From a virus (lineage: Duplodnaviria; Heunggongvirae; Uroviricota; Caudoviricetes): 40,547 nt of DNA. Positions within the stretch are counted from its first letter, which is position 1, and every line of letters starts with the position of its first letter. Made by a program: the position numbers. Shown here one piece after another: positions 6,001-9,000 of the stretch. Location of the stretch: IMG/VR virus record IMGVR_UViG_2617270967_000014; one strand, written 5' to 3'.

Positions 6001-9000
6001 ACAATCAAGCAGTGGCGCGAAACATACGGACCTGGTAGCAACGTTGTACTGCCAGCAGAAGAAGCGGAAGAACTGGCACGAATTGCTCTGGCAGCGCTGG
6101 AAGCCGAGCCGATAGGTTTCCGTTGCAGGCGCAATGATAACCTTGGTGATTGGAGTTACGTATATCATCGAGAGCCAGATGATTTTGAGCGCAAACATTT
6201 AGTGATAGAGGGCATTTACGCCGCCCCTCCAGCACCAGTAGTACCGGAAGAAAAACCAATGCCTAATCCTCTTAGCATGTACGCGGTTGATGCTGTTGCC
6301 GCTATTGCAGAGGTGAGAGGCTGGAACGCCTGCCGTGCCGCTATGCTTCAGTCCGGAAACTTTCGGGAAAACAAGAATTCGTCAACCAATAATTTTCGGG
6401 AAATCGCGGAAACGTCAACCAACTATCCGGTAATTCCTAGTGAGGTGTTGTCCGCAATCCTGAAGGTTGCCAAGATTCGTGCCGATTTCGATGATTTTGA
6501 CGGTGACAGGCGAGGTATCGGTGATTGTCTGGATGAGGCTGAGCAAGAGCTTATCGTTACCATTAACAAATATGCCAGTCAGTTGGCAGCAGAACCGATA
6601 GCGACTAATGACGTTCGAGAGCAAACAGCCGTTCCGCCAGTTCCGGTATTCGCTCAAAGCCCAGACGTTTTCCCAGCCGGATAAATCCCCGTCTTGCCGT
6701 ATGAAATTCAGCCCAGCGTCCGCCAGCCAGACGGGTTAATGTCTTCACCTCCGGCAGATAACGCTCAACGCTGTTACTCCCCGTACACACGCCCAGCAAC
6801 ACCAAAACATAAGGGATACCATCAGCACTGAGCACAGAACGCAGCACCAGAAAGCCATCAGGTGCCTCAAAACAAAACGCCTGCTTTTTAAGGCAGGCGT
6901 CTTTAACTTCATTCATAAATTCAGGGTTGCGGGAATTTCTCACAACACGCTGCATATACCGGAGAATTTTGTCGTCCATTCTCTCACCAGAAACGGGTGC
7001 CATATCGGCTGAACCTCAGCAACCAGTTGACGGGGACTTTCGTCCCCGTCGCGGTTTTCCTACTGCTTACACTGTAAGAACGCCGCAAACTCCGCTCCCC
7101 ACAAATTCAGCCGGAACTCACACAACGAGCCGTGTAACATCCAGATGGTGAAGATTACCGTCATACAAATTGTGACGGTGATGAGCGATTTTTGCGACAT
7201 AGCGCTTGCCTCCTGAGTGGAGAGGCGCTAACCTTCTACTTGCTTAAGGTATGATGGTTAGGGCCTCGGGTTAAACAAAATGTTTGACTCGGGGCCTTTC
7301 CACATCAGGCCTTCAGGTTCACCTTCCAGCCATCAGCCGAAAGACACCCGCGCATAATCTACGATTTTTGCCCTGCACGGGCAACAAAAAACCCGCCATC
7401 ACAGCGGGTTATGACATGTTGTCGGGTATTACTCAGAATTTCAGGCCAATGCCTGCAAATAAACCATCAGTTTTCCAGTCGCCAGAGCCTGAGCTTTCAT
7501 AAGTGACGTCCATAGTAACACTTTCATTGAAGTTAAATTGCGCGCCGACAGACCATGCAATAGACGTTTTTTTGGTGCTGTTACTTTCAGAAAAACTACC
7601 TACACCACCATTAAGATTGTCGTTAACTTTCAAATCATAAGTTACTTTTGCAACCGCAACACCTGCCATTGAATACACACTGAGGTATTCATTAAACCGC
7701 CACGAAGGACCGGATAGTAGACTCCAGTAATTAGCCCTGATATCAGTTCTCGCTGAAGCTGCCGGTTTTTTTACCTCTCGTGATGGATCGGAAGGCTTAA
7801 CATCAATGAATGCCTGTGCATTAGTCATGGATCGAGCCCATGCAAAAGAGGTTATAACACCGATCTCATCCGTAATCTCATAACGATACTTAATGTTCAT
7901 TCCCAAGGGACTTTTCTCTTTACCATCATGGCCCCGGACAAACGCATCGTCATATTCTCCAGGTGAATTGAAATAGTTTTCATTCACAAAATTGTTAAAG
8001 GTATCAAGGTTATGAAGACTTAAATCCTTAACAAAATTATTCAGCCCGGATAGCTGAAGGTGAGCGAATCCAAGGGATACGGTACTATCACCAGATGCAG
8101 CATGTGCCTGTGCAGTTAATCCACCTAAGCCCAGAGTTGCGCACACAAGAAATTTTGTGATACTTTTCATTTTAAGAATCTTCCTATATTAAAAACATTG
8201 TTCTCTCTGTCCTTTCCACATTTTTGATTATTTACCATCCTGCCTGGAAATAAAAAATAAAAATTTTTCTTAAAATGATTGATAAATTTTATTGTGCTAA
8301 TCATACATTGAAGTATTAATAACAAGAACTTTGTCTACATAAGGCTTTCGAATATCCCATGTTGCACCACCTGAATAATGCTCACAGGAATATATTTTAT
8401 TTCCTGTAGCGCCAGTGGATGTGGTATAAATCGGTCGGTCATAAGGAGTTCTTTTCCAGTTATAATACCCGACCAGTGCAGGCATAATTGCGCATGGATA
8501 TCCAAGGTCCTTTTCAAATTTGATATCAACAGGTATTAACTTCGCGTCAAGCAGCATCATTTCGCCATGGTAAATCATCTCACCCAACGGATTATACATG
8601 GCGATACCATACTCAGAAGGTTGAGTAACCATATTCGCAAAAGCATAAACAGTCGTAACACCAGGATTCGTTCCCCTGACAATTTGATGAAGCCTTAAGG
8701 CATGATATCCATCAATCTGTTCATGCGTGTACATGACATCGGCCTTCTTCTCTGTTCTGATAAAGAAAAAACAACTTTTTCCTGACGGAATTGACGTTTT
8801 AAAAAAAGCCTTCTCAGTCGCCGGAATAGTTCCCTTATTGATAAGACACTGAGGCGTAAACCCCGGGCTTATCCACAAGCTGCCATCTGGTTTCGTAATG
8901 CTTAAACCATACATACAACTCACCCCCAGAATGTATAAATATATGACCCCATCCCCTGCTCAAGATTTGACCACATCACCGTATTGCCATTAATGGTTAT

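What the first reader, a model, noticed from the sequence alone, without database searches (positions are those of the whole stretch)
6605..7200. Small membrane peptide and an unrecognised 132-aa protein after lom, convergently overlapping the early-type block
Downstream of lom on the late strand are a 46-aa hydrophobic peptide with a consensus AGGAGG ribosome-binding site, a perfect 8-bp hairpin, and a 132-aa ORF whose last 27 codons overlap the 3' end of the opposite-strand gene at 5971-6684. This is where two differently organised segments meet, so the overlap marks a recombination junction and one of the two C-termini is probably not native.
Basis: seen in the sequence. Interest (0 to 1): 0.45.

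Follow-up and report, generated by a model that had tools for sequence, protein, structure and literature searches.

The report
Prophage deletion scar beside hok toxin
The overlap of two opposite-strand genes is the scar of an 11.9-kb deletion in a decaying E. coli prophage that cut the ends off both genes; the small peptide next to it is a Hok-type membrane toxin whose antisense RNA matches a published phage 'microRNA' precursor.

Summary
The 80-nt overlap (6605-6684) contains a deletion junction at 6642-6648, with microhomology TCCGGyA. E. coli cM8a carries the same prophage at ynfF without the deletion. Its two flanks are 99.9% identical to the window, in the same orientation, and 11,863 bp apart.

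Both C-termini are foreign, not just one:
- The 237-aa ORF is residues 1-226 of a 308-aa protein. It lost its whole DUF551 domain and gained 11 foreign residues.
- The 132-aa ORF is residues 1-118 of a conserved ~125/133-aa protein (PHROG 610, vb_24B_43 of phage Phi24B). It lost a conserved terminal beta-strand and gained 14 foreign residues. I predict this protein has a small GNAT-like fold.

The 46-aa peptide is a Hok/Gef toxin inside a compact hok/sok-type cassette (about 7384-6995). It has no mok ORF. Its antisense promoter and hairpin coincide with the published precursor of the Phi24B "microRNA" 24B_1; the papers I could search never mention hok.

The junction is ordinary prophage decay. 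The 24B_1 link and a nucleotide-conserved terminator-like hairpin inside the GNAT-like gene are the interesting by-products.

The parts
7433..8170 (-). lom (Ail/Lom outer-membrane beta-barrel protein)
   Evidence: Pfam PF06316, E 3.9e-30; annotated as Lom in related phages.
7385..7410 (-). Intrinsic terminator of lom (AACCCGC-TGTGAT-GGCGGGTTTTTTG)
   Evidence: Terminator scan; sequence.
7356..7384 (-). Predicted hok promoter: -35 TTGCCC (7384-7379), 17-nt spacer, -10 TAGATT (7361-7356)
   Evidence: Read from the sequence. Conserved in 9 cassettes, and homology with P2-like phage P88 begins here. It matches 8 of 12 consensus positions, below the scan tool's threshold. Inferred, not shown.
6995..7349 (-). 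Predicted full-length hok mRNA (about 355 nt)
   Evidence: The Rfam sok/hok-leader model RF01794 aligns from 7349. The minimum-free-energy fold is -155 kcal/mol, z -6.55. The shared cassette ends exactly at 6995 in P88. The consensus fold has 10 covarying pairs.
7333..7349 (-). 5' element (tac-like) GGGUGUC-UUU-CGGCUGA that pairs with the 3' end
   Evidence: Paired with 7012-6995 in the single-sequence fold and in the alignment fold of 9 sequences.
7206..7234 (+). Promoter of the Sok-like antisense RNA: -35 TTGCCT (7206-7211), 17 nt, -10 TAACCT (7229-7234). The -35 overlaps the hok ribosome-binding site.
   Evidence: Sequence. These are the same boxes (TTGACT / CGCTAACCT) published as promoter p24B_1 in Phi24B (PMC4426718; L015 sequence).
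7241..7303 (+). Predicted Sok-like antitoxin RNA (about 62 nt). It has a long hairpin at 7260-7298 followed by UUUCC. The stretch equivalent to 24B_1 is 7272-7293.
   Evidence: Fold -39 kcal/mol, z -7.5. The stem is conserved in 9 loci while the apex varies. An ~80-nt transcript was detected experimentally in Phi24B (PMC4426718).
7209..7214 (-). hok Shine-Dalgarno sequence AGGAGG, predicted to be sequestered by CCUCU(C) at 7220-7225
   Evidence: Sequence; pairing (alignment columns 187-190 with 197-200).
7060..7200 (-). hok: 46-aa Hok/Gef family membrane toxin
   Evidence: Pfam PF01848, 33.2 bits against cutoff 22. PHROG 251, E 2.8e-24. RefSeq WP_000078907 'Hok/Gef family protein'. 33% identical to the HokW-type peptide (70-aa ORF at 23688..23900, minus strand), with a shared LCE(F/V)R motif.
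7029..7050 (-).
   Evidence: Two pairs change on both sides in P88 (A-U to G-C, C-G to A-U), and the loop stays GNRA (GAAA to GCAA).
6995..7012 (-). 3' element (fbi-like) UCAGCCGA-UAU-GGCACCC that pairs with the 5' end. It contains the first ATG (7003) of the 132-aa ORF.
6605..7003 (-). Chimeric 132-aa ORF. Residues 1-118 come from a conserved GNAT-like-fold protein (PHROG 610 / vb_24B_43; probable true start Met9 at 6979). The last 14 residues are foreign.
6867..6902 (-). Terminator-like hairpin plus U-tract embedded in the coding sequence (GACGCCUGC-CUUAAAAA-GCAGGCGUUUUGUUUUG), conserved at the nucleotide level
   Evidence: Terminator scan, both strands. The same sequence occurs in Salmonella, Yersinia, Pectobacterium and Brenneria. 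Synonymous sites are frozen: 8 of 9 codons inside against 2 of 26 outside, Fisher p 1.6e-5.
6642..6648 (.). Deletion junction with microhomology TCCGGTA (TCCGGTA on the left parent, TCCGGCA on the right parent)
   Evidence: Three-way alignment. BLAST map against cM8a: 11,863 bp are missing.
5971..6684 (+). Truncated 237-aa ORF: residues 1-226 of a 308-aa DUF551-domain protein plus 11 foreign residues (FAQSPDVFPAG)
   Evidence: Native ORF at L003 7001-7927. DUF551 occupies residues 230-304 of the native protein. The window ORF has no Pfam hit.

Best explanation
The window carries a decaying lambdoid (933W/Sepvirinae-type) prophage next to ynfF. In an intact relative the late strand reads lom, a hok/sok cassette, a ~125-aa GNAT-like-fold protein, four small genes, and an 8.4-kb LPD5/LPD38 giant protein. 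That strand converges on an early-type block ending in a 308-aa DUF551 protein.

An illegitimate (microhomology-mediated) deletion of 11,863 bp fused the inside of the DUF551 gene to the inside of the GNAT-like gene at 6642-6648. Each truncated gene now reads into the antisense of the other until a chance stop codon. That produces the 80-nt convergent overlap and two chimeric, probably non-functional C-termini.

The hok/sok cassette (about 7384-6995) was not touched. Inferred mechanism, by analogy with plasmid R1 hok/sok:
- A weak promoter makes a ~355-nt hok mRNA. Its 5' end pairs with its 3' end, and its AGGAGG ribosome-binding site is sequestered, so it is translationally inert.
- 3' trimming back to the stable GNRA-capped hairpin would activate it.
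- A ~62-nt antisense Sok-like RNA, transcribed from a promoter overlapping the hok ribosome-binding site, pairs with the leader and keeps Hok off.

Shown here: the junction, the parent sequences, the family assignments, the RNA pairing and its covariation, and the identity of the antisense unit with the Phi24B 24B_1 precursor locus. Inferred: toxicity, processing, the mode of Sok action, and loss of function of the two chimeras.
For: Junction:
- Window 1-6648 is 100% identical to AST198 and cM8a.
- Window 6642-10866 is 99.9% identical to cM8a. The two blocks are collinear, on the same strand, and 11.86 kb apart in cM8a.
- The three-way alignment shows the switch in TCCGGyA.
- None of 5,426 complete E. 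coli genomes and no phage record has the junction contiguous.
- The exact chimeric protein recurs, in the same gene context, on 7 contigs read, including the NCBI assembly GCA_000703845.1 and a Logan run assembly (SRR1186490). So it is not an assembly artefact.

C-termini.

Hok.

hok RNA architecture:
- Fold statistics; covariation.
- Cassette boundaries are defined by its second home in P2-like phages.

Antisense unit: the promoter boxes and coordinates match PMC4426718.

Context of the GNAT-like gene: conserved synteny in Salmonella, Yersinia, Pectobacterium, Brenneria and others.
Against: - The Rfam sok model scores only 35 bits, below its gathering score of 59.
- No mok reading frame exists, so the R1 mechanism, in which Sok blocks mok translation, cannot apply literally.
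- The hok and sok promoters match the consensus poorly, and the scan tool did not flag them.
- No terminator follows the fbi-like element directly. The first one downstream is the embedded hairpin about 100 nt further on.
- The GNAT assignment rests on a predicted structure only. No sequence profile links the family to GNAT Pfam models or PDB sequences, and no Q/RxxGxG/A motif is conserved.
- Loss of function of the chimeras is inferred, not shown.
Confidence: 0.88

Rival explanations
1. The junction is a mosaic joint made by recombination between two different phages (an early-module donor and a late-module donor), rather than a deletion within one prophage.
For: Lambdoid phages are mosaic. 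The left block (antA, TraR, DUF4752, Ea22, DUF551) looks like the remnant of a second pL operon: a diverged second copy of these genes lies at 37911-39132. No integrase or att site separates the converging blocks, even in cM8a.
Against: cM8a holds both flanks at 99.9-100% identity, collinear and on the same strand. The missing 11,863 bp is exactly the expected gene set. The joint has only 5-7 nt of microhomology and cuts through two coding sequences, which is typical of illegitimate deletion. A second deletion of the same style (13.3 kb, TATCCA) lies 4 kb away.
Confidence: 0.07
2. The overlap is a natural, functional convergent gene overlap, and both proteins are native.
For: Both ORFs are open, and gene callers called them in public assemblies.
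Against: Native homologues are 308 and 133 aa with different, conserved C-termini. Both tails are simply the antisense of the partner gene. The overlap is absent from 5,426 complete E. coli genomes.
Confidence: 0.02
3. The antisense transcript of the cassette is mainly a trans-acting microRNA-like regulator (24B_1, targeting d_ant, S or sdhB), as published, and the 46-aa ORF is incidental.
For: PMC4426718 and PMC10732415 report 2,223 reads of one 20-nt species, phenotypes of a deletion mutant, and in-vitro pairing with the sdhB 5' UTR.
Against: - The 20-nt region is the variable apex and 3' arm of the hairpin. It differs in the window, phi315, EH2011 and P88, while the stem pairing is kept. 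That argues for structural rather than seed-sequence constraint.
- The opposite strand encodes a Pfam-significant Hok with full hok-mRNA architecture, conserved even in P2-like phages.
- Going by the legend of Fig. 1a (the figure itself was not available), the published mutant deleted part of the lom-vb_24B_43 interval, which I find to be occupied by the hok cassette.
Confidence: 0.15

Closest known systems
hok/sok of plasmid R1 (type I toxin-antitoxin; Gerdes and co-workers)
   Same: A small Hok/Gef toxin. A structured mRNA of about 350-400 nt closed by 5'-3' (tac-fbi-like) pairing. A hairpin just after the stop codon. A ~60-nt antisense RNA with a long hairpin, whose -35 box overlaps the hok ribosome-binding site region. 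The R1 details are from my own knowledge; the window features are.
   Different: No mok ORF. hok has its own strong AGGAGG. The peptide is 46 rather than 52 aa. The Rfam model scores below threshold. It lies in a phage late region between lom and a tail-module gene.
hokW-sokW of Sakai prophage 5 (Takada et al. 2021, PMC8621323)
   Same: A prophage-borne type I TA of the Hok family in Stx-type phages. The window also carries this locus at 23838-24012 / 23688-23900(-) (Rfam 110 bits).
   Different: It is a different locus. HokW is 51 aa (MKQQKAM...), only 33% identical. It sits in the nin region and has an in-frame upstream extension (70-aa ORF). The lom-adjacent cassette has not been tested as a TA system in the literature I could search.
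24B_1 'microRNA-size' RNA and its 80/81-nt precursor of phage Phi24B (PMC4426718, PMC10732415)
   Same: The same locus: between lom and vb_24B_43, with the same promoter boxes (TTGACT / CGCTAACCT) and the same hairpin. Phi24B encodes a 46-aa Hok identical to the window's.
   Different: The papers interpret it as a trans-acting microRNA-like regulator and never mention hok, sok or toxin-antitoxin (0 occurrences). The window's sequence differs from 24B_1 at the hairpin apex (7272-7293).
Small GNAT-fold phage proteins such as anti-CRISPR AcrVA5 (PDB 6iuf) and N-terminal acetyltransferases
   Different: No sequence-profile similarity to any GNAT Pfam model or PDB chain. No conserved acetyl-CoA P-loop motif. 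It lacks beta1. Its conserved position is at the head of a tail-module block that ends in a giant LPD5/MuF/LPD38 protein. Its function is unknown.
Prophage decay by microhomology-mediated deletion (cryptic prophages of E. coli)
   Same: Large internal deletions with 5-7 nt junction microhomology that truncate genes and remove virion genes.
   Different: Nothing unusual, except that two independent deletions (this window and AST198) share a right endpoint within 4 nt inside the small-terminase gene.

Membership tests
Hok/Gef toxin family (Pfam PF01848) | Profile HMM score above the curated threshold | tested here: met
   33.2 bits against a cutoff of 22, E 4e-8. PHROG 251, E 2.8e-24. The NCBIfam HokA equivalog scores only 38 against a cutoff of 89, so it is not HokA itself.
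Hok/Gef toxin family (Pfam PF01848) | Peptide of about 50 aa with an N-terminal hydrophobic helix, a conserved Cys and an LCE-x-R motif | tested here: met
   Alignment with the window's HokW-type peptide and phage homologues: C27 is invariant, and LCEFR aligns with LCEVR.
Hok/Gef toxin family (Pfam PF01848) | Membrane-damaging toxicity when expressed | not testable with these tools
   Needs an expression experiment.
hok/sok-type type I TA locus | cis-antisense RNA gene with its own promoter and terminal hairpin, overlapping the toxin mRNA leader | tested here: met
   Promoter at 7206-7234 and hairpin at 7260-7298, conserved in 9 loci. A transcript was detected in Phi24B (PMC4426718).
hok/sok-type type I TA locus | Long-range 5'-3' fold-back (tac-fbi) closing the full-length toxin mRNA | tested here: met
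   7349-7333 pairs with 7012-6995 in the minimum-free-energy fold (z -6.55) and in the 9-sequence consensus. Five pairs in adjacent helices show compensatory changes.
hok/sok-type type I TA locus | Overlapping mok reading frame that couples hok translation to the Sok target | tested here: not met
   All three frames are closed upstream of hok. 7 of 9 homologous cassettes have no such ORF.
hok/sok-type type I TA locus | Rfam RF01794 covariance model at its gathering score | tested here: not met
   35.1 bits against 59 (E 1.5e-5). The window's other hok locus scores 110.
GNAT (GCN5-related N-acetyltransferase) superfamily | GNAT core fold | tested here: met
GNAT (GCN5-related N-acetyltransferase) superfamily | Sequence-profile membership (Pfam Acetyltransf_* models) | tested here: not met
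   No hit for 25 close or 61 distant family members, even at relaxed E-values. The PDB profile searches gave no GNAT hit: nothing with the 25-sequence profile, and only two insignificant non-GNAT matches with the 61-sequence profile, the best being a bleomycin-resistance protein at E 0.042.
GNAT (GCN5-related N-acetyltransferase) superfamily | Acetyl-CoA pyrophosphate-binding loop Q/R-x-x-G-x-G/A after beta4 | tested here: inconclusive
   The loop after beta4 (TGSNS, EGHDS, STRKDA and so on) is variable and has no consensus motif. In GNATs the binding is through the backbone, so absence of the motif does not exclude binding.
DUF551 (Pfam PF04448) | Presence of the DUF551 domain | tested here: not met
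   The window's 237-aa ORF has no Pfam hit. The native 308-aa homologue has DUF551 at residues 230-304, and the window copy ends its native part at residue 226.
PHROG 610 (phage protein of unknown function; vb_24B_43) | Profile match over the family length | tested here: met
   E 4.6e-62 for residues 9-125 against profile positions 1-116 of 124. The last ~8 profile positions are unmatched, consistent with the replaced C-terminus.

The most novel reading that the evidence does not exclude
Two linked readings remain open.

1. The lom-adjacent cassette is a mok-less variant of hok/sok, and its antitoxin RNA is the precursor of the published phage 'microRNA' 24B_1. If so, the phenotypes ascribed to the first phage microRNA are largely those of disturbing a type I toxin-antitoxin module.

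2. The next gene carries a terminator-like hairpin frozen at synonymous sites across at least five genera. It may act as an embedded attenuator that gates expression of the downstream block ending in the giant LPD5/LPD38 protein.
Probability: 0.45. Interest if true: 0.6.

Novelty: new member of a known kind. Interest (0 to 1): 0.38.

Why it matters
The junction itself only documents prophage decay. It warns annotators that both overlapping ORFs are chimeric pseudogene products.

The by-products are more useful:
- They give a simple, testable re-reading of the Phi24B 24B_1 'microRNA' as a fragment of a Sok-type antitoxin facing an unannotated Hok gene that is common in Stx phages.
- They assign a GNAT-like fold to a conserved tail-module protein of 933W-type phages.
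- They expose a nucleotide-level conserved hairpin inside that gene, which could be a regulatory element.

Tried and rejected
- Pfam, NCBIfam and PADLOC gave nothing for the 132-aa and 237-aa ORFs.
- PDB sequence searches with 25- and 61-sequence profiles found no GNAT or other credible relative: the first returned nothing, the second only two insignificant non-GNAT matches. A Pfam scan of 61 distant relatives gave no acetyltransferase hit. The GNAT assignment therefore stays structural only.
- The afdb50 fold library was unavailable.
- I looked for a mok frame in all three frames, including non-canonical starts, and found none.
- I first assumed the peptide was HokW of Sp5. I rejected this: HokW is a different 51-aa peptide whose own locus lies at 23.7-24.0 kb of the window.
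- I considered the 8-bp hairpin as a hok terminator. I rejected this because no U-tract follows it on the minus strand; the T-run is on the plus strand. It fits better as the 3' UTR stem of the hok mRNA.
- Folding a 3'-truncated mRNA showed refolding of the 5' end but did not clearly free the ribosome-binding site. I do not use it as evidence.
- I considered the A AAG stretch in the embedded hairpin as a frameshift site. I rejected this because it lies in the loop with no downstream stimulator.
- Literature searches for the RefSeq accession together with hok, lom and 933W found nothing.
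Full report
**1. Observation**

- lom lies at 7433-8170(-).
- A 46-aa ORF lies at 7060-7200(-), preceded by AGGAGG (7214-7209) 8 nt before its ATG.
- A perfect hairpin sits between the two ORFs. It is 9 bp (7050-7042 with 7037-7029) with a GAAA loop.
- A 132-aa ORF lies at 6605-7003(-). Its last 80 nt overlap the end of a 237-aa ORF at 5971-6684(+).

**2. The overlap is a deletion scar**

Megablast splits the region cleanly.
- Everything from 6642 rightward matches Stx/933W-type (Sepvirinae) phages and many E. coli prophages (97.5-99.9% identity in the records listed).
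- Everything up to 6648 matches a different set of loci.
- No phage record and none of 5,426 complete E. coli genomes has the two parts contiguous.

A three-way alignment shows where the switch occurs. The window follows the left parent (AST198) through ...CCAGTTCCGGTA. It follows the right parent (FORC_069) from TCCGG(C)ATTCGCTC.... The crossover therefore lies in a 5-7 nt microhomology at 6642-6648, inside the overlap.

E. coli cM8a carries the same prophage next to ynfF without the deletion.
- Window 4726-6648 and 6642-8863 match it at 99.95%, on the same strand, with 11,863 bp in between.
- The missing piece holds the rest of the DUF551 gene, a small Panacea-domain gene, the 8.4-kb LPD5/LPD38 giant gene, four small genes, and the end of the 133-aa gene.
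- A second deletion of the same style lies at window 10861-10866. It is 13.3 kb, has the microhomology TATCCA, and removed the terminase-to-tail genes.

The exact chimeric 132-aa protein recurs, with the same neighbouring genes, on 7 contigs read, including the NCBI assembly GCA_000703845.1 and a Logan run assembly, SRR1186490. The junction is therefore real and confined to a small clade.

**3. Consequences for the two genes**

The native left gene is 308 aa, with DUF551 at residues 230-304. The window copy keeps residues 1-226, then reads 11 foreign codons (FAQSPDVFPAG) to a chance stop.

The native right gene is 133 aa and ends ...GFERMPDDEDGFMVFRIAV. The window copy keeps residues 1-118 and ends IPELAERLFALERH.

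The lost segment is the conserved terminal strand of the family (M127, F129 and I131 are nearly invariant). An AlphaFold2 model of the chimera loses confidence at the C-terminus: the last two 10-residue blocks score pLDDT 66 and 49, against 87 and 92 in the model of a native family member.

Both C-termini are therefore non-native.

**4. The 46-aa peptide is a Hok toxin in a hok/sok-type cassette**

Family assignment:
- Pfam HOK_GEF, 33.2 bits against a threshold of 22.
- PHROG 251, E 2.8e-24.
- RefSeq calls the identical protein 'Hok/Gef family protein'.

It is not HokW of Sp5 (PMC8621323). The HokW locus is also in the window, at 23688-24012(-), where Rfam scores 110 bits. The HokW-type peptide encoded there is only 33% identical to the 46-aa peptide.

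RNA features of the lom-adjacent locus:
- lom has its own terminator at 7410-7385.
- A weak promoter (TTGCCC, 17 nt, TAGATT; 7384-7356) would start the mRNA near 7349, where the Rfam hok-leader model begins to align. That model scores 35 bits, E 1.5e-5, below its gathering score.
- Folding 7349-6990 gives -155 kcal/mol, z -6.55. The 5' GGGUGUC...CGGCUGA pairs with the 3' UCAGCCGA...GGCACCC (7012-6995). This is the tac-fbi type of closure known from R1 hok mRNA.

The same cassette occurs in P2-like phages P88 and P88_4B11, after gene D, in an unrelated context. Homology there starts at the -35 box and stops exactly at GGCACCC, window 6995. This delimits a mobile unit of about 390 nt.

The 9-sequence consensus fold keeps the closure and shows compensatory changes:
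- in a long-range helix (three pairs);

The hairpin is therefore a conserved element of the hok 3' UTR. I infer that it stops 3' trimming, but this is not shown.

No mok frame exists. In this respect the cassette departs from classical hok/sok.

**5. The antisense RNA is the published 24B_1 precursor**

On the plus strand:
- -35 box TTGCCT at 7206-7211, overlapping the hok ribosome-binding site;
- a 17-nt spacer;
- -10 box TAACCT at 7229-7234;
- a long hairpin at 7260-7298 followed by UUUCC (-39 kcal/mol, z -7.5).

Nejman-Falenczyk et al. (PMC4426718) mapped the 20-nt '24B_1' RNA to Phi24B positions 45711-45692, 'between lom and vb_24B_43'. They predicted promoter boxes TTGACT and CGCTAACCT and an ~80-nt hairpin precursor, which they detected by RT-PCR.

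In the Phi24B sequence these are exactly the homologous antisense elements. Phi24B also encodes a Hok identical to the window's, which is not annotated in HM208303.

Neither that paper nor its 2023 follow-up (PMC10732415) contains the words hok, sok or toxin-antitoxin. A review by the same group discusses Hok/Sok and 24B_1 separately. No other paper in the searchable library links them.

The 20-nt segment is the variable apex and 3' arm of the hairpin, and it differs in the window at 7272-7293.

**6. The 132-aa protein**

Its family (PHROG 610) has 45 close homologues in the 90%-identity clusters; the members that carry an organism name are all Enterobacterales. Most are 123-124 aa and start at the window's Met9. 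A profile search finds 216 clusters at 50% identity.

The first ATG (7003) lies inside the fbi-like element of the hok cassette, so the annotated 8-residue extension is probably spurious.

Across E. coli, Salmonella, Yersinia, Pectobacterium, Brenneria and two unnamed metagenomic/run-assembly contigs, the gene heads a conserved block. The block follows the tail-tip fibre genes: this gene, then genes of about 220, 126, 90 and 440 aa. The giant LPD5/LPD38 gene was seen after it in E. coli, Salmonella and Yersinia; in the other loci the flank ends at, or lacks, that gene.

hok and lom are absent from the Yersinia and Pectobacterium loci, and in Salmonella they sit in a different order. They are morons inserted beside a core gene.

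Structure:
- The AlphaFold2 model of native family member P0001 has pLDDT 85.5 and GNAT topology.
- BFVD hits include phage acetyltransferases.
- No sequence profile supports GNAT membership, and the CoA-loop motif is not conserved.

I therefore call it 'GNAT-like fold, activity unknown'.

**7. Embedded hairpin**

Inside this gene, at 6902-6867(-), lies a terminator-like hairpin with a U-tract.

In six homologues from different genera, 49-69% identical in protein, 8 of 9 invariant-residue codons inside the element use the identical codon. Outside it the figure is 2 of 26 (Fisher p 1.6e-5).

This is selection at the nucleotide level. Its role is unexplained; an attenuator, an insulator against moron transcripts, or an RNA-stability element are all possible.

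**8. Verdict**

- The junction is ordinary prophage decay.
- The Hok identity is a known kind, although this cassette is a little-studied, mok-less member.
- The link to 24B_1 and the embedded conserved hairpin are the items worth follow-up.

Noticed in passing
window 6867-6902 (-): A terminator-like hairpin plus U-tract lies inside the GNAT-like gene. It is frozen at synonymous sites across E. coli, Salmonella, Yersinia, Pectobacterium and Brenneria: 8 of 9 codons inside against 2 of 26 outside are identical, p 1.6e-5. The most diverged homologue (L023) lacks it.
   Followed up: partly
window 7206-7303 (+); L015 (Phi24B HM208303) 380-520: The antisense promoter and hairpin of the hok cassette are the published p24B_1 promoter and the 80-nt precursor of the 24B_1 'microRNA' of phage Phi24B. 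The papers do not mention hok or sok, and the identical 46-aa hok gene is unannotated in HM208303.
   Followed up: yes
window 10861-10866; L018 17829-17834; L003 about 9312: A second deletion (13.3 kb, microhomology TATCCA) removed the terminase, portal, capsid and tail genes. An independent deletion in E. coli AST198 has a different left end (inside the LPD5 gene) but the same right endpoint within 4 nt, inside the small-terminase gene. This may be a break hot spot, for example a packaging cut site.
   Followed up: partly
window 23688-24012 (-): A canonical hokW-sokW-type locus (Rfam sok 110 bits; 70-aa ORF with an in-frame upstream extension). The window therefore carries two different hok loci.
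   Followed up: partly
L011 1470-1885 and L012 1470-1885 (P2-like phages P88, P88_4B11): The same ~390-nt hok cassette sits after tail gene D of Peduoviridae phages. Homology ends exactly at the promoter and at the fbi-like 3' end, so the cassette moves as a discrete unit between unrelated phage types.
   Followed up: partly
window 2400-6648 (+) and 37911-39132 (+): The early-type block next to ynfF (antA, TraR, DUF4752, Ea22, 171-aa, DUF551) is duplicated at 89-95% identity near the other end of the window. No integrase or att site separates it from the converging late genes, even in undeleted cM8a. This looks like the remnant of a tandem or rearranged second prophage.
   Followed up: no
window 7028-7051 (+) and 6877-6900 (+): Both hairpins also read as terminator-like on the plus strand. 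After the deletion, transcripts leaving the truncated DUF551 gene would run antisense into the GNAT-like gene and the hok 3' UTR until they meet these hairpins.
   Followed up: no
window 3335-3420 (+), 16844-17049 (-), 20191-20389 (-), 21776-21974 (-): Rfam hits above gathering score: sRNA-Xcc1, STnc100, and two copies each of C4 antisense RNA, isrK and the c4-a1b1 targets (antirepressor control modules).
   Followed up: no
A4 rows Stx2_481 (L016) and EH2011 (L009): In two Stx2a phages the lom-adjacent hok ORF is disrupted (a 1-nt insertion giving 44 aa with a changed tail, and an 8-nt deletion giving 24 aa), while the surrounding RNA elements are kept.
   Followed up: no
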